In this document: piece by piece, positions 29,478 through 55,855 of the stretch
Numbering within the stretch: position 1 is the first letter of the stretch
How the letters are laid out: each line of letters starts with the position of its first letter
From: an uncultured Erysipelotrichaceae bacterium
GTDB lineage: Bacteria; Bacillota_I; Bacilli_A; RF39; UBA660
DNA: 64,000 bases
Direction of reading: 5' to 3'
Assembly: GCA_963535465.1 (NCBI GenBank)
Contig: CAUSWF010000003.1
Location: 38,112-102,111 of the forward strand
Notes under the pieces: generated by a model
The model's input: the letters and a program-made list of their open reading frames with translations, nothing else
What the model was told of the DNA's origin: nothing
Database searches by the model: none
Made by a program: the position numbers and the translations under genes

Positions 29478-30269
29478 CTATAAAGAATTAGCAATATCAA
29501 CAAATATTGAATAATCTAACTCTTCAGCTCTAACATTTAAATCATAATCATATGTTGCTAAAACATTTCCAACTTTTTCTAAATCATATCCCCTCAAATT
29601 ATTACGAAGAGTTTTTCTTTTAAATTGAAAACTATCTCTAAGCAATTTCTCATACTTATCAAAATCTTTCAAATATATTCTATCTTTTGGAGTAAGAGAA
29701 ATAACTACACTATCAACATTAGGTATAGGTATAAATTCATTCCTACTAACTTTAAACTCTCTACGTATATCATATGAATAATTTAGTAAAGCTGTTATAG
29801 AAGAATACTCCTTACTACCAGGAACACTTGATAATCTATCTCCAAGTTCTTTCTGAACCATCATAACAATTTTATCAAACTTAATATTACTTCTAAGTAA
29901 CTTTATTATTATAGGAGTAGTTATATAATAAGGAACGTTACTAACAAAATATAATTTATCATAATCATATTTAGAAATATCACTTAAAATATCAGCATCT
30001 AAAAAATCTTTAAATATAATTTCATAATTATTATAATTATATAATTTTTCATTTAGTTCTTCTTCTAATTCATTATCTATCTCATAACAAATAACTCTAT
30101 TTGCAACCTCACATAAAGAACTAGTAAGTATAGCCCCACCAGGTCCTACTTCAATAACTAAACTTCTTCCATTTATTTCAGCAACTTTTATAATAGAATT
30201 AACAATTTTCTTATCTTTCAAAAAATTTTGACCAAATTTCTTTTTAAATTTAACATTATATTTTTCCAT
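29478..30269 (-). CDS. rsmA: 16S rRNA (adenine1518/1519-N6)-dimethyltransferase
   Basis: 263 aa. GQNFL and VIEVGPG motifs. Confidence 0.93.
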   Translation of the reverse strand: MEKYNVKFKKKFGQNFLKDKKIVNSIIKVAEINGRSLVIEVGPGGAILTSSLCEVANRVICYEIDNELEEELNEKLYNYNNYEIIFKDFLDADILSDISKYDYDKLYFVSNVPYYITTPIIIKLLRSNIKFDKIVMMVQKELGDRLSSVPGSKEYSSITALLNYSYDIRREFKVSRNEFIPIPNVDSVVISLTPKDRIYLKDFDKYEKLLRDSFQFKRKTLRNNLRGYDLEKVGNVLATYDYDLNVRAEELDYSIFVDIANSL

Positions 30270-30282
30270 AATTTCACCTTAC

Positions 30283-30903
30283 CTACTTCTTGTTAAAATA
30301 GATTAACTTTAAAACATAATAAACTATTATATATAAAGCTGGTAAAATTACAACTAAAATAAATCCAAAAGTAGTAGATATAAAATTTTGTAAAATCCCA
30401 ATATAAGGTATTTTAAAAACAACTTTACCATGCACCCTATTTTTAGGAACTAAATAATTATCATAATTATTATTATTGTCACCCTTAGTCTTATAAAATA
30501 CTAAACCGTCTTTTTCATATATCTTCATTATTCTATGAGTAATAACCAGACCAAAATTATAAGGATCAGCAGATGAAAAAGTAATAATGTCACCTATTTC
30601 TAATCCGTCATTTCCTCTCTTAACAACTATCGCATCAGAAACATTTATAGTAGGTTCCATAGATTTAGTTGCTACAACATAAGTTGTTATGCCATAAGTT
30701 TTATTCTTATATATATTAATAAAAAATAAAGTATATAAAATAATTACAAAAAATAAGGAAAACAAAAACACCATAATAGATATTTTCTTATTATAAACAA
30801 TATTACTTATATGTTTTCTAAAACTATTTACCATACTTAAATTATAACTACAAGAAATATAAAAAACTATTAAATACAATAAAAAAAGATGTATTTTACA
30901 CAT
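30283..30903 (-). CDS. sipW: SipW-type (ER/archaeal-type, Ser-His) signal peptidase I
   Basis: KSMEPT box with catalytic Ser. GDIITF...VITHRIM box with catalytic His. FYKTKGDNN box. C-terminal membrane anchor. Architecture matches B. subtilis SipW. True start may be an internal Met near 30834. Confidence 0.8.
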   Translation of the reverse strand: MCKIHLFLLYLIVFYISCSYNLSMVNSFRKHISNIVYNKKISIMVFLFSLFFVIILYTLFFINIYKNKTYGITTYVVATKSMEPTINVSDAIVVKRGNDGLEIGDIITFSSADPYNFGLVITHRIMKIYEKDGLVFYKTKGDNNNNYDNYLVPKNRVHGKVVFKIPYIGILQNFISTTFGFILVVILPALYIIVYYVLKLIYFNKK

Positions 30904-31447
30904 CTTTAGCTTGAATAGTAAATTTTAATACTTCATCATTTGAAAAATTAGTCACAGTTCCTTCATTCTTCCAAACTTTAACTCTATATTCCTGTTTTAC
31001 ATCATCAGATACCTTACTACTATATAAAATTAAATTTTTAACTTTATCTAATGTAATAGGTTTAACTACTTGTCTATAAGCACCATCTTCTAATTTTTCT
31101 AAAGATATTTTTATATTTTTATTATTAGATTTATCTTTCAATTTATATAAAATATTATATGTAATTTCTTTTCTATCTGCCCCTTTAAAATCAGCCTGTA
31201 TAGCAAAATTAAACACATTATTTCCATCTGACAATTTAAAAGCATCTTCATCGCTCATAGAATTAATAGAATTCATGACTATACCCTGTTTGTCATTATA
31301 ATAAAGAAAATCTATTTTCCCTCCATTTAAATTTTTATATACAACTTCTCTATCTCTATTTTTATATATATATAAACCTATTATTAGTAAACCTAATAAT
31401 ATTATTGAAATCATAACATTTATTAATATATTTCCCTTTTTATTCAT
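30896..31447 (-). CDS. Small secreted or membrane-anchored beta-rich protein, paralog A (candidate SipW substrate)
   Basis: 183 aa. N-terminal basic segment plus hydrophobic signal-like segment. Shares the C-terminal motif YRVKVWKNEG with the neighbouring paralog (YKLRVWVSEEEG). Stop overlaps the sipW start. Confidence 0.55.
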   Translation of the reverse strand: MNKKGNILINVMISIILLGLLIIGLYIYKNRDREVVYKNLNGGKIDFLYYNDKQGIVMNSINSMSDEDAFKLSDGNNVFNFAIQADFKGADRKEITYNILYKLKDKSNNKNIKISLEKLEDGAYRQVVKPITLDKVKNLILYSSKVSDDVKQEYRVKVWKNEGTVTNFSNDEVLKFTIQAKDV

Positions 31448-31456
31448 ATTATCTCC

Positions 31457-31978
31457 TTATAATGATTTTACATATATTGAAGAAGTAAATACCTTTAAAC
31501 TATTATTTATACCTTCTTCTTCTGAAACCCATACTCTTAATTTATATTTAGAACTGCCTAAACTAGGTAAATTACCCACAACTAATCTTTTGCCTTCAAT
31601 AACACTACTAGATATAAGCAGTTTAGCATAAGTTGTATTTAAAATAATCTTACCATCTTTAGACAAACTCAACTTAATATTCTGATCATTTATAGAATTA
31701 TCCATACTTGTCTTTACTAAATATATTTCATATTTTGCCTTACCTATATTATTATTCTTAACCTCTATATCAATCAAATTTTTCACATCACTATTACTAT
31801 CAATATTAATACCAGCATAATCTGAAATTGGTAATTTATTATTAACATTAATATCTCCACTTTTTTTATATGAAATTTGATAATTTTTTTTTGCAATAAA
31901 ATTAAGTAGCATCAAAGAAAACAAAGTAAAAAATAATATTATAAATAACATATATTTTATTTTCATTACCAACCCCAC
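31457..31978 (-). CDS. Small secreted or membrane-anchored beta-rich protein, paralog B (candidate SipW substrate)
   Basis: 173 aa with the same architecture as paralog A. Start could be Met5 at 31966. Confidence 0.55.
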   Translation of the reverse strand: MGLVMKIKYMLFIILFFTLFSLMLLNFIAKKNYQISYKKSGDINVNNKLPISDYAGINIDSNSDVKNLIDIEVKNNNIGKAKYEIYLVKTSMDNSINDQNIKLSLSKDGKIILNTTYAKLLISSSVIEGKRLVVGNLPSLGSSKYKLRVWVSEEEGINNSLKVFTSSIYVKSL

Positions 31979-32538
31979 CTAACTATACTGAATTTTACTC
32001 CTCTAACATTTCCAAAATCATTAGTCTCTTTTTCACTATTAAATAATAAATCAAGGTGTCCTTTCTTAATAGCTCCTCCTCTATCCATTACTATTGCTGG
32101 AAATTTATTACCATTAGGTAAATGAACATCAATTATAGTGCCACATGGTATATTTCTATCTGCCGCAACTACACGTATCTTTCCATATTCTTTATCTGGA
32201 AATAAGATGTTGCCATTTCTAAAATCTGTTCTTGGTCTACATCCGGAAAATCCTCCACAACCTTCACAATTAGGGCCATAACCAGTTAAATTTCCGCTAA
32301 ATGTTGATCCTACTTTTTTTATTAAAATATCGTTAAAACTATCAACAACTAAATTAGTATCATCAACTCTTAAATTCACATTACTAGATAAATTATCATA
32401 CTTTATAGATTTAACATAATTAGAATTGGATACATAAAGTACATTTTCTTTATTAAAAGTTGTTGCATATATAAGTAAAGCAAAAACAAGTATTACAAAA
32501 AATAAATATCTAAAATATACACCTATAATTTTCTTCAT
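31966..32538 (-). CDS. 3D-domain (RlpA/MltA-like) cell-wall protein with N-terminal membrane anchor, YabE-like
   Basis: C-terminal 3D-domain signature (GYGPNCEGCGG...CRPRT...VAADRNIPCGT...MDRGGAI). Start set to the internal Met (MKKIIGVYF) to avoid a 62-nt overlap with tatD. Confidence 0.65.
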   Translation of the reverse strand: MKKIIGVYFRYLFFVILVFALLIYATTFNKENVLYVSNSNYVKSIKYDNLSSNVNLRVDDTNLVVDSFNDILIKKVGSTFSGNLTGYGPNCEGCGGFSGCRPRTDFRNGNILFPDKEYGKIRVVAADRNIPCGTIIDVHLPNGNKFPAIVMDRGGAIKKGHLDLLFNSEKETNDFGNVRGVKFSIVRWGW

Positions 32539-32572: not shown

Positions 32573-33385
32573 TTATTTTTTGAAGTCAAACAAGAAGTTA
32601 GCATTATTACTAGTAATAGAATAAACATCTTCAACAGGTATTTTTAACAATTCCGCCAAATAAGAAGCTATATAAACTATATTTTTTGAAGTATTAACAC
32701 TCCCTCTAACAGGTACTGGTGCAAGATATGGACTATCAGTTTCTAAAACTATATTATCTAATCCAATTTCTTCAATCACTTTATGTAAATTACTATTTTT
32801 AAAAGTAACTACTCCACCTATTCCTAAATAAAATCCCATTTTTATATAAATTTTAGCTACTTCTAAACTACCTGAAAAGCAATGTATTGAACCTTTTACT
32901 TTATATTTAGATAGTATATCTATAGTATCTTTAACTGCATCACGACTATGTATTGAAACTGGTAAATTATATTTTTCTGCTAGTCTCAATTGATACTCAA
33001 ATAGCTCAAGTTGTTTATCTTTATCATCTTTACCATAATGATAATCCAGACCAATTTCACCTATCGCAACTACTTTATTATTCTTTAATAATTCTTCTAA
33101 CTTAATCAAATCTTCTTCAGTATAAATAGATGCTTGATCAGGATGATATCCAATCGCAGCATATATTCCACTATGGGAATTTGCTATTTCTAAAGCCTCC
33201 TTTATCATACCACTCGTACAACCTATTATTAAAATAGCAGAACATCCACTATCAAAATCATCTTTTATTACTTTATCTATATCCTCATAATCTTCTCTAG
33301 ATATATGACAATGTGTATCAATAAACATATAACCTCCATATAAAAACATTATACACCATGTATAATGTTTAATTCTATAAATCAA
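32573..33385 (-). CDS. tatD: TatD-family metal-dependent DNase/hydrolase
   Basis: FIDTHCH start, plus SIH and D.P motifs. Conserved position after metG. Confidence 0.9.
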   Translation of the reverse strand: MIYRIKHYTWCIMFLYGGYMFIDTHCHISREDYEDIDKVIKDDFDSGCSAILIIGCTSGMIKEALEIANSHSGIYAAIGYHPDQASIYTEEDLIKLEELLKNNKVVAIGEIGLDYHYGKDDKDKQLELFEYQLRLAEKYNLPVSIHSRDAVKDTIDILSKYKVKGSIHCFSGSLEVAKIYIKMGFYLGIGGVVTFKNSNLHKVIEEIGLDNIVLETDSPYLAPVPVRGSVNTSKNIVYIASYLAELLKIPVEDVYSITSNNANFLFDFKK

Positions 33386-34917: not shown

Positions 34918-35160
34918 AAAAAAAGACTATAACATAAGGACGAATAACCGCGGTACCACCTTATTTTATAGTCATACTATACACTCTTTAGTTAACGCCT
35001 ACCACGTCTATATCTACATATCGATATAGCAGTTCAAAAGCCATCCAAAATATTATCTAATATCCTTCTCACCAAACAGGACTCTCTTAAATTAAATTAA
35101 TATCTCTCTCTTTTTCAAAACATTTATACAAAAACTATAACTCATAATTTACCTAAATGC
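34918..35160 (-). promoter_or_regulatory. T-box riboswitch leader of metG
   Basis: The minus strand contains the canonical T-box sequence AAUAAGGUGGUACCGCGG (plus strand 34945-34966). It is followed by a terminator T-run immediately upstream of the metG RBS. Confidence 0.6.
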
Positions 35161-35164
35161 AAGA

Positions 35165-35809
35165 TTAATCTATCTTTAATAAACTATTTAAAGTCAATTT
35201 AAATCTATCTCCACTCTCTTTAACATTATTAATTAATGTTGTATCTTTAACTAAAAGTTTAACGTCAACAGACTCTAATATATTCTTAGTATATTCCTTA
35301 TTTATATATTTAATCATATCAGAAGAAAATTTATCATAAACAACATTATCTGTATTATCTAATAACTCCTTTATAGAACCTATTAAATACTTATCAGTAC
35401 ACTCATTAAGTTTTGTTTTTATCATATCTTTTATATTTTTATCTATAACATTTAATTCTTTTTTTAAAAATTTATATTCCTCCCCTTCAGAAACATTAGT
35501 CTTCTTCATTAACTTTTCTAAATTCTTAACTCTAAATTCAATAATCTTTAAATAATCTTTACTTATGTTATATCTATACTCATCAAGTATTACTTCTAAC
35601 TTTTCTATATCTAAAATAATCTTATTTTTCTTAGCTAAAGATATAAACTTAGTTTTTATTACATCCATTGAATCAAGAGGTGGCCTTGCAACTAATGACA
35701 TTAAATCCTCTTTTACTAATGTATTAGTATTGTTATTTATAATATCTAAGATAATATTCTTATAATTTTCTTGATGTTGTTTTATTACAACCTCTTTATC
35801 ATCTATCAT
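35165..35809 (-). CDS. Hypothetical Lys/Glu/Ile-rich, probably coiled-coil, protein
   Basis: 214-aa ORF between mfd and metG with no recognisable family. Confidence 0.5.
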   Translation of the reverse strand: MIDDKEVVIKQHQENYKNIILDIINNNTNTLVKEDLMSLVARPPLDSMDVIKTKFISLAKKNKIILDIEKLEVILDEYRYNISKDYLKIIEFRVKNLEKLMKKTNVSEGEEYKFLKKELNVIDKNIKDMIKTKLNECTDKYLIGSIKELLDNTDNVVYDKFSSDMIKYINKEYTKNILESVDVKLLVKDTTLINNVKESGDRFKLTLNSLLKID

Positions 35810-45975: not shown

Positions 45976-46009
45976 TATTATTATCCTCAGTTTGTAAAAT
46001 TATTATTCA

Positions 46010-46027
46010 ATGTTTCACGTGAAACAT
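46010..46027. promoter_or_regulatory. parS site 1 (perfect palindrome ATGTTTCACGTGAAACAT)
   Basis: 16-bp core TGTTTCACGTGAAACA equals the ParB/Spo0J parS consensus. Confidence 0.8.
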
Positions 46028-46160
46028 AATATCTATACTGAGAATAGTACAAAAATAAATAAACATAATATCAATATTTTAATCACATCAAACTAAATTA
46101 CAAAATATCATAATAAATATAATTAAAATTTTAACCAAAATTAATTTTATCTCTTTTAAA

Positions 46161-46178
46161 TTATTTCCCGGGAAATAA
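46161..46178. promoter_or_regulatory. NBS-type site 1 (perfect palindrome TTATTTCCCGGGAAATAA)
   Basis: Core ATTTCCCGGGAAAT equals the B. subtilis Noc-binding-site consensus. The perfect palindrome extends to 24 bp (AAATTATTTCCCGGGAAATAATTT, 46158-46181). Confidence 0.75.
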
Positions 46179-46197
46179 TTTAAGTTATAAATAAAGA

Positions 46198-46215
46198 ATG
46201 TTTCACGTGAAACAT
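46198..46215. promoter_or_regulatory. parS site 2 (perfect)
   Basis: ATGTTTCACGTGAAACAT. The perfect palindrome extends to 22 bp (GAATGTTTCACGTGAAACATTC, 46196-46217). Confidence 0.8.
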
Positions 46216-46308
46216 TCAGTTTACCAAATTAAAATAAAAATAATTCAAAAATAAGTATAATATATAAATTAAAAATTGATATTATTCTAACGGTTATTAA
46301 TTATAAAA

Positions 46309-46326
46309 TTATTTCCCGGGAAATAA
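46309..46326. promoter_or_regulatory. NBS-type site 2 (perfect)
   Basis: TTATTTCCCGGGAAATAA. Perfect 24-bp palindrome at 46306-46329. Confidence 0.75.
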
Positions 46327-46401
46327 TTTTAATAATAATATAGAAAAAAATTAAAAAATAATAATATTTGAAATTATATATAATTTTATTAATCAATATA
46401 T

Positions 46402-46419
46402 ATGTTTCACGTGAAACAT
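46402..46419. promoter_or_regulatory. parS site 3 (perfect)
   Basis: ATGTTTCACGTGAAACAT. Confidence 0.8.
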
Positions 46420-46553
46420 TAAATCCATACTGAGAGTGGTATGAAAATAAGTAAACATAATATTAATATTTTAATAATATCAAACTAAATTATAAAATAT
46501 CATAAATAAATATGATTAAAATTTTAATCAAAATTAATTTTACCTTCTTTAAA

Positions 46554-46571
46554 TTATTTTCCAGGAAATAA
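46554..46571. promoter_or_regulatory. Degenerate NBS-type site (TTATTTTCCAGGAAATAA)
   Basis: Positional homolog of NBS site 1 in repeat unit 2. Two substitutions destroy the CCCGGG core and the symmetry. Confidence 0.5.
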
Positions 46572-46590
46572 TTTAAACTATAAATAAAGA

Positions 46591-46608
46591 ATGTTTCACG
46601 TGAAACAT
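46591..46608. promoter_or_regulatory. parS site 4 (perfect)
   Basis: ATGTTTCACGTGAAACAT, flanked GAATG...CATTC as in site 2. Confidence 0.8.
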
Positions 46609-46700
46609 TCTGTTTGCTAAATTAAAATAAAGATAATTTAAGAATAAGTATAATATAGAAATTAAAAATTGATATTATTCTGCAGTTATTAAGTATAAAA

Positions 46701-46718
46701 TTATTTCCCGGGAAATAA
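46701..46718. promoter_or_regulatory. NBS-type site 3 (perfect)
   Basis: TTATTTCCCGGGAAATAA. Confidence 0.75.
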
Positions 46719-46790
46719 TTTTAATAATAATATAGAAAATCTAAAAATAATAATAAATTGAAATTAATATAATTTAATTAATCGATATAT

Positions 46791-46808
46791 ATGTTTCACG
46801 TGAAACAT
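46791..46808. promoter_or_regulatory. parS site 5 (perfect)
   Basis: ATGTTTCACGTGAAACAT. Confidence 0.8.
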
Positions 46809-46882
46809 AGTAAGGTTATATAACAATAAAAATATATAAATTAAAGATTTAACATAATAGTTAATAACTGTATCTTATTAAA

Positions 46883-46900
46883 TTATTTCCCGGGAAATAA
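46883..46900. promoter_or_regulatory. NBS-type site 4 (perfect)
   Basis: TTATTTCCCGGGAAATAA. Confidence 0.75.
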
Positions 46901-46917
46901 TTTAATATAATAAAATA

Positions 46918-46935
46918 ATGTTTCACGTGAAACAT
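46918..46935. promoter_or_regulatory. parS site 6 (perfect)
   Basis: ATGTTTCACGTGAAACAT. Confidence 0.8.
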
Positions 46936-46985
46936 TATAAAAAATATTCACAACTGATAAAAAGACTTTAAAACATTAATATTAA

Positions 46986-54472: not shown

Positions 54473-55855
54473 TTAAACACCTCCTATACTATTTTTTAAT
54501 TCATCTATAATTTTAGCTAAATCTTTATTTATTTTTATCTCTTTATCAATCTTATCAACAGAATGCATAACAGTAGAATGGTCTTTACCACCAAATTCCA
54601 TTCCTATAGTAGGAAATGATTTATCAGTCATACATCTACATAAATACATTGCTACTTGCCTAGGAAATGCTATACTACTACTCCTCTTCTTACTTCTAAT
54701 ATCATCAAATGATATTTGAAAATAATCAGATACTATTTTTTGTATTCTCTGTATATCATCTTTTTGACTAAATCCTTTTTTAACATAATCTTTTAAAGCT
54801 TCTTGAGCAAGTGCTAAATTAATTGGAGCACCACCCATAACTGTAGAATATACACAAAGTCTGTTAATAGAACCTTCCAATTCTCTTACATTAGAACCTA
54901 TATTAGAAGCAATGAAATCAATAACTTCATCAGGTATAGGAATATCTTTATCCAATTCAGCACCTTTTATTTTACTTTTTAAAATATCTCTCCTTAAATC
55001 AAATCCAGGAGGATTAATAGGAATAGGCAATCCCCAAGAAAATCTTGTCTGTAATCTTTCTTCTAAAACCTTCAAATCATTCGGTGATCTATCAGAAGTA
55101 ATTACTATTTGTTTACTATTATCATATAAATTAGTAAAAGTATTAAAAAACTCTTGTTGAGATTGATTAGCTTTACCCAAAGCTTGGATATCATCTATCA
55201 TTAAAATATCTACATCTCTATATTTTTTCTTAAAAAAATCAATATAAGTAAAATTATTAGAATCGCCTGATTTTCTATGTGTTTTAACAAAATCATCAAT
55301 AAATTGTTCACTAGTAACATATAAAACTCTTTTATTGCTATTTTTAAATATATAATTACCAATTGCATGCATCAAATGAGTCTTCCCTAACCCACTATTA
55401 CCATATATAAATAGTGGATTGTATATTGTTCCAGGACTTTTTGCAACAGTCTTCGCTGCATTTTCAGCAAATTTATTTTGTTGTCCTACAACGAAATTTT
55501 CAAAAGTATAATCTTTGTTCAAATTAGTTGATTCATAAGAATATTCTTTTTTTTCCTCAACTTCATTATTATCAACTTTTAAAGTATTATGTATTTTCTC
55601 AGCTTCTAGTTCTTCTTGTAAATAATATTCTAAAGTATAAATATTTCCAGTTAGTGATTTTAATATATCAATAATAGTATTATTATACCTATCTTTTAAA
55701 GCATTTTTTTGTGATTGCATTTCAACTTGTATTATTAATACATCACCATTTTCCTTAATGAATTTAGTTTTTTCAAACCAATATCCATATAAAGCGGGAC
55801 TGGTAGTTTCTTTTATTTGTTCCAACATTTTAGTCCAAACAATATTCATATCCAT
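54473..55855 (-). CDS. dnaA: Chromosomal replication initiator DnaA
   Basis: 460 aa. AAA+ Walker A GNSGLGKTHL and box VII present. C-terminal DnaA signature region (FGGKDHSTVMHS). Confidence 0.97.
   Translation of the reverse strand: MDMNIVWTKMLEQIKETTSPALYGYWFEKTKFIKENGDVLIIQVEMQSQKNALKDRYNNTIIDILKSLTGNIYTLEYYLQEELEAEKIHNTLKVDNNEVEEKKEYSYESTNLNKDYTFENFVVGQQNKFAENAAKTVAKSPGTIYNPLFIYGNSGLGKTHLMHAIGNYIFKNSNKRVLYVTSEQFIDDFVKTHRKSGDSNNFTYIDFFKKKYRDVDILMIDDIQALGKANQSQQEFFNTFTNLYDNSKQIVITSDRSPNDLKVLEERLQTRFSWGLPIPINPPGFDLRRDILKSKIKGAELDKDIPIPDEVIDFIASNIGSNVRELEGSINRLCVYSTVMGGAPINLALAQEALKDYVKKGFSQKDDIQRIQKIVSDYFQISFDDIRSKKRSSSIAFPRQVAMYLCRCMTDKSFPTIGMEFGGKDHSTVMHSVDKIDKEIKINKDLAKIIDELKNSIGGV

What the first reader, a model, noticed from the sequence alone, without database searches (positions are those of the whole stretch)
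30283..32538. Inserted cassette: SipW-type signal peptidase with two paralogous small secreted proteins and a 3D-domain protein, where B. subtilis has rnmV
Between the yabE-like 3D-domain gene and ksgA(rsmA) lies a translationally coupled cassette. Two paralogous 173- and 183-aa proteins have a basic N-terminus plus hydrophobic signal-like segment and a beta-rich body ending in the shared motif Y(K/R)(L/V)(R/K)VW. They are followed by an ER/archaeal-type Ser-His signal peptidase (SMEP and THR boxes, C-terminal anchor), which is the SipW family. In Bacillus, SipW is dedicated to processing matrix fibre proteins (TasA, CalY) encoded next to it. The proteins here are much smaller than TasA and have no obvious homology to it. 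They may be an uncharacterised SipW-dependent fibre or surface-layer system embedded in a housekeeping operon of a streamlined genome.
Basis: partly seen in the sequence, partly recalled or inferred. Interest (0 to 1): 0.62.

Follow-up and report, generated by a model that had tools for sequence, protein, structure and literature searches.

The report
SipW peptidase with new surface-protein family
A signal peptidase of the kind that Bacillus uses to release its biofilm fibre protein sits beside two copies of an unnamed small surface-protein family, a pairing kept at this spot in most uncultured RF39-type gut bacteria sampled; in this genome the two proteins have lost the usual cutting site.

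Summary
On the minus strand, tightly packed between tatD and ksgA, lie four genes:
- a 190-aa 3D-domain protein
- two distant paralogues of 169 and 183 aa
- an ER/archaeal-type signal peptidase I (TIGR02228, 101.7 bits; Ser/His/Asp boxes intact)

The paralogues belong to a real family with no match in Pfam or NCBIfam. It has 119 cluster representatives. Members have an N-terminal membrane helix and a beta jelly-roll domain (AlphaFold pLDDT 87).

The cassette is not a local insertion. About 70 GTDB species show tatD-[3D]-family x1-7-sipW-[family]-ksgA, as do 47 of 51 lineages retrieved independently through SipW.

Many relatives carry a conserved site, G-V-S-(F/Y)-A|A-F, which resembles the TasA site GGTWA|AF. 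As in TasA, the signal peptide is the most conserved segment.

Homology to TasA (PF12389) and to TIGR04088 was tested and not met.

Both window copies lack the site, so they are probably uncleaved membrane anchors.

SipW also persists without the family next to it in a few lineages. A general-peptidase role therefore remains open and could not be tested.

Verdict: a new variant of the SipW-plus-cognate-protein theme, of moderate interest.

The parts
31966..32538 (-). 3D-domain protein (190 aa): N-terminal hydrophobic segment, then a C-terminal 3D domain. Read here as a shortened yabE counterpart that neighbours the module rather than a core part of it.
   Evidence: PF06725 scores 30.6 bits against a cut-off of 23.8, and there are no DUF348 or G5 hits. 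It sits in the same slot after tatD in the 'elaborate' relatives. It is absent from about 45 relatives that keep the family genes and sipW. It directly precedes sipW in L104/L106/L107.
31457..31966 (-). Family protein 1 (169 aa; 'U1 type'). The hydrophobic helix YMLFIILFFTLFSLMLLNFIA lies at 31892-31954 and is followed by a beta-rich ectodomain. The family motif YKLRVW lies at 31529-31546. The ATG overlaps the 3D stop codon by one base.
   Evidence: Searches give the gene and coordinates. There is no Pfam or NCBIfam hit. The first cassette gene is of this type in 47 of 48 relatives with 2-3 copies. The relatives' cleavage motif is absent (PSSM -14.9).
30896..31447 (-). Family protein 2 (183 aa; 'U2 type'). 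The predicted membrane helix covers residues 3-29 (31361-31441), followed by a linker and a beta jelly-roll/sandwich. The family motif YRVKVW lies at 30971-30988. A GGAG ribosome-binding site sits 9 nt after the previous stop codon.
   Evidence: AlphaFold2 run with the 86-sequence family alignment gave pLDDT 87.2 and pTM 0.72: a helix at 3-29 and ten strands between residues 37 and 181. The second cassette gene is of this type in 47 of 47 relatives. The cleavage motif is absent (PSSM -24.6).
30283..30903 (-). ER/archaeal-type signal peptidase I (SipW-like). It is 183 aa from the ATG at 30834, or 206 aa from the ATG at 30903, which overlaps the preceding stop codon. Catalytic boxes: SMEP 30652-30663, THR 30532-30540, GDNN 30472-30483. 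It has hydrophobic anchors at both the N- and C-termini.
   Evidence: TIGR02228 scores 101.7 bits (cut-off 51.85). NF046067 (Bacillus SipW) scores 88.9, below its 190 cut-off. TIGR02227 (bacterial type) scores 30.4, below its 47 cut-off. Residues S58, H100 and D119 are invariant in 44-70 orthologues that are only 31-43% identical to the window protein.
32573..33328 (-). tatD/yabD (251 aa). It forms the upstream boundary of the slot and is shown for context only.
   Evidence: PF01026 hits at 1.7e-77. It flanks the cassette in nearly all relatives.
29478..30269 (-). ksgA/rsmA. It forms the downstream boundary of the slot, starting 13 nt after the sipW stop codon. Shown for context only.
   Evidence: TIGR00755 scores 233 bits. 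It flanks the cassette in relatives.
34933..35127 (-). T-box leader ahead of metG. It is the likely start of the transcription unit that runs through the cassette. Shown for context only.
   Evidence: RF00230 scores 101.6 bits against a gathering threshold of 93. No convincing terminator lies between metG and ksgA.

Best explanation
What it is. The cassette is the reduced, two-copy form of a clade-wide cell-surface module of RF39-type uncultured gut Bacilli. The module consists of tandem genes for an unnamed family of roughly 190-aa proteins and, directly downstream, a SipW-type (ER/archaeal, Ser-His) signal peptidase I. Each family protein has a basic N-terminus, a hydrophobic helix of about 22 residues and a beta jelly-roll ectodomain. 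All of this sits inside a housekeeping operon (T-box-metG-tatD-...-ksgA) about 24 kb from oriC.

How it most likely works in fuller versions of the module (inferred). The family proteins are exported by Sec. SipW cuts them at a conserved site, G-(V/I)-(S/T)-(F/Y)-A | A-F-(T/S)-(Y/F). This site has aromatic residues at P2 and P2', as in TasA. Cleavage exposes a conserved N-terminal strand. The released ectodomains then build or decorate a surface structure. The same N-terminal module also heads giant adhesin-like proteins.

How it most likely works in this genome (inferred). Both copies belong to fixed orthologous types, U1 and U2, and both have lost that site. They most likely stay tethered to the membrane by the uncleaved helix, with the ectodomain outside, possibly as a U1/U2 pair. 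SipW remains catalytically intact, so it must act on something: these proteins at a non-canonical site, the neighbouring 3D protein (LIYA|TTF), or the wider secretome.

Shown versus inferred. Shown: gene content, family membership, fold class, synteny, the motif and its absence from the window proteins. Inferred: cleavage by SipW, membrane tethering, and any assembly into a structure.
For: Peptidase identity and intact active site.

The family is real and unnamed. There are 119 representatives at E<=1e-3 in 1.84 billion proteins. No Pfam or NCBIfam model covers it. None of the ten cluster representatives checked carries a source name.

Fold: confident AlphaFold model of a helix plus a beta jelly-roll.

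Linkage:
- About 70 species-level genomes show tatD-[3D]-family x1-7-sipW-[family]-ksgA.
- In an independent retrieval through SipW, 60 of 67 informative loci and 47 of 51 distinct lineages have a family gene directly upstream.
- The downstream divergent copy overlaps the sipW stop codon (L068).

Cleavage motif. In 102 relatives, P5 is G in 87%. P2 is F/Y in 92% and P2' is F in 86%, although both positions were partly pre-filtered by the selecting pattern. A PSSM built from the motif picks TasA's experimentally known site, GGGTWA|AFNDI, as TasA's best position. Aromatic P2' residues hinder LepB-type enzymes, and TasA needs SipW (PMC10269814).

Signal-peptide conservation. The h-region is the most conserved segment both in the family (entropy 1.42 against 1.7-2.5 for the mature part) and in true TasA proteins (0.55 against 1.1-2.3).

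Similarity to TasA. hhalign aligns the signal peptide plus the first strand to the TasA family in register, at P=1e-3.

Other support:
- Long family-headed proteins carry DUF285, Flg_new, BspA-type LRR and cadherin-like modules.
- U1 and U2 are fixed orthologous types.
- The window copies lack the motif.
Against: - No direct evidence of cleavage, surface location or assembly.
- Mature-domain profile comparison with TasA is not significant (E=0.27).
- TIGR04088 is not met.
- Roughly half of the genome loci (35 of 71), including the window's, carry only motif-less copies yet keep an intact SipW. That fits a broader role for the enzyme.
- SipW occurs without an adjacent family gene in L104/L106/L107, L140 and L155/L157.
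- Synteny within a single clade can reflect vertical inheritance rather than functional coupling.
Confidence: 0.55

Rival explanations
1. SipW here is the cell's general, possibly only, type I signal peptidase. It sits in a housekeeping operon, and its adjacency to the family genes is inherited gene order. On this reading the two window proteins are ordinary uncleaved bitopic membrane proteins, with a function unrelated to SipW.
For: - The window copies have no cleavage motif and have variable, anchor-like helices, as do all U1 and U2 orthologues.
- 35 of 71 genome loci have only such copies, yet the catalytic residues are invariant.
- SipW is kept without neighbouring family genes in L104/L106/L107 (tatD-3D-sipW-ksgA), L140 and L155/L157.
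- The cassette is co-transcribed with metG, tatD and ksgA behind a T-box, with no internal terminator.
- No bacterial-type peptidase was seen in the 64-kb window or in the held loci. This is weak evidence, because only a small part of each genome was examined.
Against: - The conserved TasA-like site with aromatic P2 and P2' residues, and the unusually conserved signal peptide in motif-bearing relatives, argue for a cognate enzyme-substrate pair.
- 47 of 51 SipW-ascertained lineages keep family genes immediately upstream even though copy number varies from 1 to 8.
- A family copy is translationally coupled to the end of sipW.
- The two roles are not mutually exclusive.
Confidence: 0.3
2. The family is a very divergent branch of the TasA/camelysin (PF12389) superfamily. 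The cassette would then be a true homologue of tapA-sipW-tasA, forming donor-strand-exchange fibres.
For: - hhalign aligns the signal peptide, cleavage site and first strands in register: KqIlLSiLgvaILVVaVVGVSyAaF..NtItTGTItmsY against KKLSLGVASAALGLALVGGGTWAAF..ATFASGTLDLSA, at P=4e-4 to 1e-3.
- One or two members hit PF12389 or the TasA NCBIfam model at E of about 0.003-0.008.
- The TasA donor strand is residues 28-38, immediately after the cleavage site (PMC9674648). That corresponds to the conserved AF(T/S)Y... segment of the family.
Against: - With signal peptides removed, the profile-profile E-value is 0.27.
- Only 2 of 98 motif-bearing members touch PF12389, and both are below threshold.
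- The window's U1 copy lacks the roughly 15-residue segment that would form a donor strand.
Confidence: 0.15
3. The proteins are type IV-pilin-like (archaeal-style) subunits. Their conserved N-terminal helix would stay in the mature protein and form a filament core.
For: - The helix is the most conserved part of motif-bearing members.
- Weak profile matches to archaeal pilins 6nav_A and 8tib_A (E 0.12-0.8) span the helix and the first strands.
- Pfam Pilin_N hits 5 of 98 members and PilA4 hits 4 of 98, all below threshold.
Against: - There is no G/A at position -1 ahead of the helix, and no Glu at position +5.
- No prepilin peptidase, assembly ATPase or platform gene appears in any of about 150 loci.
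- The adjacent enzyme is a type I peptidase that cuts after the helix, not before it.
- The same pattern of helix conservation is seen in true SipW substrates.
- All the matches are non-significant and are driven largely by hydrophobic composition.
Confidence: 0.04

Closest known systems
tapA-sipW-tasA operon of Bacillus subtilis, and the sipW-tasA-calY locus of B. cereus
   Same: - An ER/archaeal-type signal peptidase I is encoded within a cluster of its presumed secreted substrates.
- The substrates have long, unusually conserved signal peptides.
- In relatives, the site reads small-aromatic-Ala | Ala-Phe.
- The ectodomain is a jelly-roll-class fold.
- A divergent paralogue sits on the other side of sipW, an arrangement reminiscent of tapA-sipW-tasA.
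   Different: - The substrate family is not detectably homologous to TasA beyond the signal-peptide region. PF12389 and TIGR04088 are not met.
- The proteins are about 190 aa, against 261 aa for TasA.
- Copy number ranges from 1 to 8.
- Fuller versions include two extra membrane proteins of 229 aa and about 150 aa.
- The cluster is embedded in a housekeeping operon near oriC, whereas the Bacillus operon is, from general knowledge (not checked here), a separately regulated biofilm operon.
- The window's copies lack the cleavage site.
- The peptidase scores below the Bacillus SipW equivalog cut-off (88.9 against 190).
Archaeal TasA-like filaments: AbpA bundling pili of Pyrobaculum and CanA/CanX cannulae
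   Same: - Small subunits exported by Sec and processed by a type I signal peptidase.
- Jelly-roll fold.
   Different: - Those systems use the generic peptidase and have no dedicated sipW nearby (PMC9245690).
- AbpA matches PF12389 at 97% HHpred probability. This family gave no comparable match.
- No filament has been demonstrated here.
Clostridium perfringens SipW-dependent BsaA matrix polymer
   Same: A sipW gene encoded beside a secreted polymer-forming matrix protein in an anaerobic Firmicute. This comparison rests on the title and abstract of PMC11580942 and on general knowledge; it was not analysed here.
   Different: A different protein family. BsaA forms intermolecular isopeptide bonds and is linked to type IV pilus genes, and neither feature is seen here.
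B. subtilis YabE (3D-domain protein downstream of yabD)
   Same: - The same position after tatD/yabD.
- An N-terminal membrane segment.
- A C-terminal 3D domain.
   Different: It is only 190 aa, with no DUF348 or G5 domains detected. It has been lost from many relatives.

Membership tests
ER/archaeal-type signal peptidase I (S26B; TIGR02228) | Profile score above the curated cut-off | tested here: met
   101.7 bits against a cut-off of 51.85.
ER/archaeal-type signal peptidase I (S26B; TIGR02228) | Catalytic Ser and His (plus Asp) in the SM.P, THR and GD.N..D boxes, with no Lys general base | tested here: met
   SMEP, THR and GDNN are all present. S58, H100 and D119 are invariant across 44-70 orthologues. 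The bacterial-type model TIGR02227 scores 30.4, below its 47 cut-off.
ER/archaeal-type signal peptidase I (S26B; TIGR02228) | Membrane anchors at both the N- and C-termini | tested here: met
   By inspection of the translation, hydrophobic stretches lie near residues 20-42 and 160-180 of the 183-aa form. No topology predictor was run.
Bacillus SipW equivalog (NF046067) | Score of at least 190 bits | tested here: not met
   88.9 bits. The protein is SipW-like in type but is not an orthologue by NCBI's criterion.
TasA/camelysin (Pfam PF12389) | Pfam model hit at the gathering threshold | tested here: not met
   The window proteins give no hit. 1 of 86 and 2 of 98 relatives hit at E=0.0048, below threshold.
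TasA/camelysin (Pfam PF12389) | Profile-profile similarity over the mature jelly-roll domain | tested here: not met
   hhalign of mature parts gives E=0.27. Only the signal peptide plus the first strand aligns, at P=1e-3 and probability 22-36%. The TasA profile was built from Bacillaceae sequences only, so it is narrow.
TasA/camelysin (Pfam PF12389) | TasA-like jelly-roll fold | tested here: inconclusive
TasA/camelysin (Pfam PF12389) | Polymerisation by N-terminal donor-strand exchange | not testable with these tools
   No multimer prediction was available and no model coordinates were returned.
SipW-cognate signal peptide (TIGR04088) | Domain score of at least 19 bits | tested here: not met
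   The window proteins give no hit. The best relative scores 11.2 bits.
SipW-cognate signal peptide (functional resemblance) | Small residues at P3 and P1, aromatic residues at P2 and P2', and an h-region more conserved than the mature protein | tested here: met
   This is met in motif-bearing relatives, and the PSSM recovers TasA's true cleavage site. It is NOT met by the window's two proteins, which score -14.9 and -24.6.
Type IV / archaeal pilin-like proteins | Class III signal peptide (G/A/S at -1 before the helix) and nearby prepilin peptidase, ATPase and platform genes | tested here: not met
   No such residues are seen at the N-termini. No such genes appear in about 150 loci. Only sub-threshold similarity to 6nav, 8tib and Pilin_N was found.
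3D domain / YabE-like | PF06725 above threshold, and the DUF348 and G5 domains of full-length YabE | tested here: inconclusive
   The 3D domain is met (30.6 bits against 23.8), but DUF348 and G5 are absent. It is therefore a shortened relative. That full-length YabE has these domains comes from general knowledge.

The most novel reading that the evidence does not exclude
RF39-type gut Bacilli carry a previously unrecognised SipW-dependent surface-assembly system. Its parts would be: tandem subunits of a new jelly-roll family, released at a TasA-like site and polymerising or docking through their conserved N-terminal strand; a divergent subunit after sipW; and two dedicated membrane proteins. 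The same N-terminal module would graft BspA-LRR, DUF285 and cadherin-type adhesins onto the structure. That would amount to a sortase-independent way of displaying adhesins on thin-walled or wall-deficient cells. The window genome would hold a stripped-down, membrane-tethered remnant of this system.
Probability: 0.3. Interest if true: 0.75.

Novelty: new variant of a known kind. Interest (0 to 1): 0.55.

Why it matters
RF39 and related orders are common, uncultured members of human and animal gut communities, with small genomes and thin or missing cell walls. Almost nothing is known about their cell surface.

This locus defines a conserved protein family that matches no Pfam or NCBIfam model and carries no source name in the clusters checked. 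It ties that family to a specialised signal peptidase. It also shows that the same module heads large adhesin-like proteins.

If the TasA-like mechanism holds, SipW-dependent matrix or fibre biology would extend to a new protein family and a new branch of Firmicutes. It would also give concrete targets for metaproteomics and for heterologous reconstitution: the AF(T/S)Y... neo-N-termini, and SipW itself.

If SipW instead proves to be the sole signal peptidase, that would be a notable case of a bacterial lineage relying on the ER/archaeal-type enzyme for general secretion.

Tried and rejected
1. Word-indexed homologue searches with each paralogue found only same-species copies. The exhaustive profile search was needed to find the family.
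2. The first AlphaFold run, with 5 near-identical sequences, gave a poor model (pLDDT 57.7). It was discarded in favour of the 86-sequence run.
3. The first genome scan, using the full 86-sequence alignment, failed because no stretch was conserved enough. It was redone with a 16-sequence sub-alignment. That pattern favours motif-less copies, so a second, SipW-based scan was run to remove this ascertainment bias.
5. The TIGR04088 signal-peptide model is not met.
6. The type IV pilin reading was rejected on signal type and gene content.
7. Recent horizontal insertion was rejected. The cassette occupies a clade-wide conserved position and shows only a modest dip in GC.
8. AFDB fold libraries were not available.
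9. A remembered B. subtilis SipS sequence found no bacterial-type peptidase in the window or the first-batch loci, only weak hits to the sipW genes and two other ORFs. This is uninformative about whole genomes.
10. The two extra membrane proteins found in relatives have no Pfam match.
Full report
**The locus**

All genes of interest lie on the minus strand of a roughly 27% GC window that spans the replication origin. dnaA is at 54473-55855, followed by dnaN, gyrB and gyrA, with rnpA, yidC, mnmE and mnmG on the other arm.

Downstream of a T-box leader (34933-35127) the gene order is:
- metG
- tatD (32573-33328)
- a 190-aa 3D-domain protein (31966-32538)
- a 169-aa protein (31457-31966)
- a 183-aa protein (30896-31447)
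- a signal peptidase (30283-30834 or up to 30903)
- ksgA (29478-30269)
- then spoVG, divIC, tilS and ftsH

Gene junctions are overlaps or gaps of 9-13 nt. No convincing terminator lies inside the run.

**The peptidase**

It scores 101.7 bits on TIGR02228, the archaeal/ER-type signal peptidase I model, against a cut-off of 51.85. It fails the bacterial-type model (30.4 against 47). It also falls below the Bacillus SipW equivalog cut-off (88.9 against 190).

The SMEP, THR and GDNN boxes are present. Their Ser, His and Asp residues are invariant in 44-70 orthologues that share only 31-43% identity with the window protein. The enzyme is of SipW type and under purifying selection, but it is not a Bacillus SipW orthologue by NCBI's criterion.

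**The two small proteins**

Pairwise similarity is marginal (E=0.006), and neither protein hits Pfam or NCBIfam. Word-indexed searches found only same-species copies.

A profile of the two, searched exhaustively against 1.84 billion cluster representatives, found 119 proteins at E<=1e-3. Most are 176-210 aa and match full length.

No Pfam or NCBIfam model covers the family. None of the ten clusters checked carries a name.

AlphaFold2 run with the family alignment gave a confident model of the 183-aa protein (pLDDT 87.2, pTM 0.72). It shows a helix at residues 3-29, a short linker and a beta sandwich/jelly-roll.

**Distribution and gene context**

A pattern from a sub-alignment retrieved 79 loci from GTDB species representatives. 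All are uncultured gut MAGs labelled Bacilli, Mollicutes, Tenericutes or Erysipelotrichaceae. One of them, Ca. Faecimonas gallistercoris, belongs to GTDB order RF39, family CAG-611, with a 1.4 Mb genome at 28% GC (PMC8035907).

Local annotation with phmmer and hmmsearch showed the same neighbourhood in about 70 of them:

pth-mfd-(214-aa protein)-metG-tatD-[3D]-family x1-7-sipW-[family]-ksgA-...-spoVG-divIC-tilS-ftsH

Three architectures recur:
- Two motif-less copies plus sipW (31 loci, including the window's own species).
- The same plus a third copy carrying a cleavage motif (14 loci).
- 'Elaborate' versions with several motif-bearing copies, the 3D gene, and a divergent copy overlapping the sipW stop codon. 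These also carry two further coupled genes, for a 229-aa bitopic protein and a polytopic membrane protein of about 150 aa. Those two genes co-occur in 22 loci.

In relatives with 2-3 copies, the first gene is of the 169-aa type in 47 of 48 cases. The second is of the 183-aa type in 47 of 47. The window's pair therefore represents two old orthologous lineages in a fixed order.

That first retrieval was ascertained through the family itself. I therefore ran a second scan of metagenome contigs with a SipW alignment. Of 67 loci with enough upstream sequence, 60 have a family gene directly upstream of sipW, which is 47 of 51 distinct SipW lineages.

The exceptions are informative:
- L104/L106/L107 read tatD-3D-sipW-ksgA, with no room for a family gene.
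- L140 and L155/L157 have sipW in another context, near pheST. In L157 an insertion of about 5 kb with three long ORFs, which I read as mobile-element-like without scanning them, lies between tatD and sipW.
- In L137, sipW follows a 691-aa protein with a VAYA|TIY signal, repeats that look calcium-binding, and a weakly family-like C-terminal domain.

**The cleavage site**

In 102 motif-bearing relatives, the hydrophobic segment ends in G-(V/I)-(S/T)-(F/Y)-A followed by (A/V/T)-F-(T/S)-(Y/F). Part of this pattern was imposed by the selecting expression. The unconstrained P5 Gly (87%) and the strong preference for F/Y at P2 and F at P2' were not.

TasA reads GGTWA|AFND. The mature TasA sequence I used was checked against PDB 8aur.

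According to PMC10269814, aromatic P2' residues hinder LepB-type peptidases, and TasA is processed by the dedicated ER-type SipW. A PSSM built from the family's site picks the true TasA site as TasA's best-scoring position.

The signal-peptide h-region is the most conserved segment of motif-bearing family members (entropy 1.42 against 1.7-2.5 for the mature part). The same unusual profile holds for 79 non-redundant TasA-family proteins (0.55 against 1.1-2.3).

hhalign places the family's signal peptide, cleavage site and first strand in register with TasA's, at P=4e-4 to 1e-3. The aligned stretch includes the residues that form the TasA donor strand (28-38; PMC9674648).

**Limits of the TasA comparison**

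- With signal peptides removed, the profile comparison is not significant (E=0.27).
- PF12389 and the TasA NCBIfam model are touched by only one or two members, below threshold.
- TIGR04088 reaches 11.2 bits in one relative, against a cut-off of 19.
- Foldseek finds only CBM6, CBM32 and DOC-type jelly-rolls, all above E=1e-3.

Taken together, membership in the TasA family is not demonstrated. The claim that survives is 'works like a SipW substrate'. It rests on the site, the conservation profile and the gene linkage.

**The window's own copies**

Both lack the site. The 169-aa protein ends its helix with ...LLNFIAKKNY, and the 183-aa protein with ...IIGLYIYKNRD. Their PSSM scores are -14.9 and -24.6. 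Unrelated proteins have a median of -15.5 and motif-bearing copies a median of +32.

All U1 and U2 orthologues have variable, anchor-like helices without a conserved small-residue pattern. Some U2 copies do show degenerate remnants, such as ISFS|SFF and VSFT|MFF. The U1 type also lacks the roughly 15 residues that follow the site in other members.

The most economical reading is that, in this lineage, the two proteins are tethered to the membrane by an uncleaved helix with the jelly-roll outside. SipW is nonetheless intact here, so it has some substrate. Candidates are these proteins at a non-canonical site, the 3D protein (LIYA|TTF), or the general secretome.

Whether the genome also has a LepB-type peptidase could not be tested.

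**Other indications of a surface role**

Long proteins that begin with the family domain, usually with the cleavage motif, continue into DUF285, Listeria-Bacteroides repeat, BspA-type LRR or cadherin-like modules.

PMC10868615 predicts thin-walled or peptidoglycan-deficient envelopes in RF39, RFN20 and ML615J-28, and reports that sortases are missing from the latter two. A sortase-independent anchoring or display module would make sense in such cells. This link is inference.

**Rivals**

- General-peptidase reading (0.3). It is the main rival and is compatible with part of the preferred account.
- True but very divergent TasA homology (0.15). This is a question of classification more than of mechanism.
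- Type IV-pilin-like reading (0.04). It is suggested by sub-threshold matches to archaeal pilins. It is contradicted by the signal type, by the absence of any pilus machinery in about 150 loci, and by the fact that true SipW substrates show the same helix conservation.

**Novelty and score**

The theme of a SipW-type peptidase encoded among its own secreted structural proteins is known from Bacillus and Clostridium. Four things are new here:
- the substrate family
- the host clade
- the variable tandem arrays with two extra membrane proteins
- the housekeeping-operon setting

I rate it a new variant of a known kind, with interest 0.55. The window itself holds the least informative, reduced form of the module.

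Noticed in passing
window 45990-46940: A non-coding stretch of about 1 kb at 16% GC lies between tadA/SRP RNA and gyrA. It holds a unit of about 393 nt duplicated in tandem. Two perfect palindromes are found nowhere else in the window: TGTTTCACGTGAAACA (6 copies) alternates with TTATTTCCCGGGAAATAA (5 copies). Both are expected about 0 times by chance. There is no Rfam hit and no sizeable ORF. It may be an array of paired binding sites.
   Followed up: partly
window 34933-35127: A T-box leader (RF00230, 101.6 bits) lies upstream of metG. With no evident terminator downstream, the surface-protein/SipW cassette may be co-transcribed with, and partly controlled by, a tRNA-sensing leader.
   Followed up: no
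window 35165-35809 (minus strand): A 214-aa protein with no Pfam match lies between mfd and metG. It is conserved in this position in nearly all related loci.
   Followed up: no
L068 13478-14621; L073 11395-12520; 22 genome loci in all: Two translationally coupled genes follow the copy downstream of sipW in 'elaborate' relatives. One encodes a 229-aa protein with an N-terminal membrane segment, the other a polytopic membrane protein of about 145-150 aa. They always occur together, have no Pfam match, and are absent from the window.
   Followed up: partly
P0070, P0066, P0082; L062 7890-11456; L067 569-4180: Proteins of 500 to over 3000 aa begin with the family domain and then carry DUF285, Flg_new, BspA-type LRR or cadherin-like modules. 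Others have no recognisable domains after the family domain.
   Followed up: partly
L104, L106, L107 (for example L106 6255-7582): This lineage has tatD-3D-sipW-ksgA with no family gene. Its 3D protein closely resembles the window's (it ends ...ILRWGW), which raises the possibility that the 3D protein is itself a SipW substrate.
   Followed up: no
L137 3568-5643: A 691-aa protein lies directly upstream of sipW. It has a VAYA|TIY signal, many D.D.DG-type repeats and a C-terminal domain only weakly similar to the family (domain E=2.5e-4 against a single target).
   Followed up: partly
window 30834 versus 30903: The sipW start is ambiguous. The upstream ATG overlaps the preceding stop codon (ATGTGTAA) and would add a second N-terminal hydrophobic segment. 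Gene callers on L001 and L002 chose the downstream ATG, giving 183 aa.
   Followed up: no
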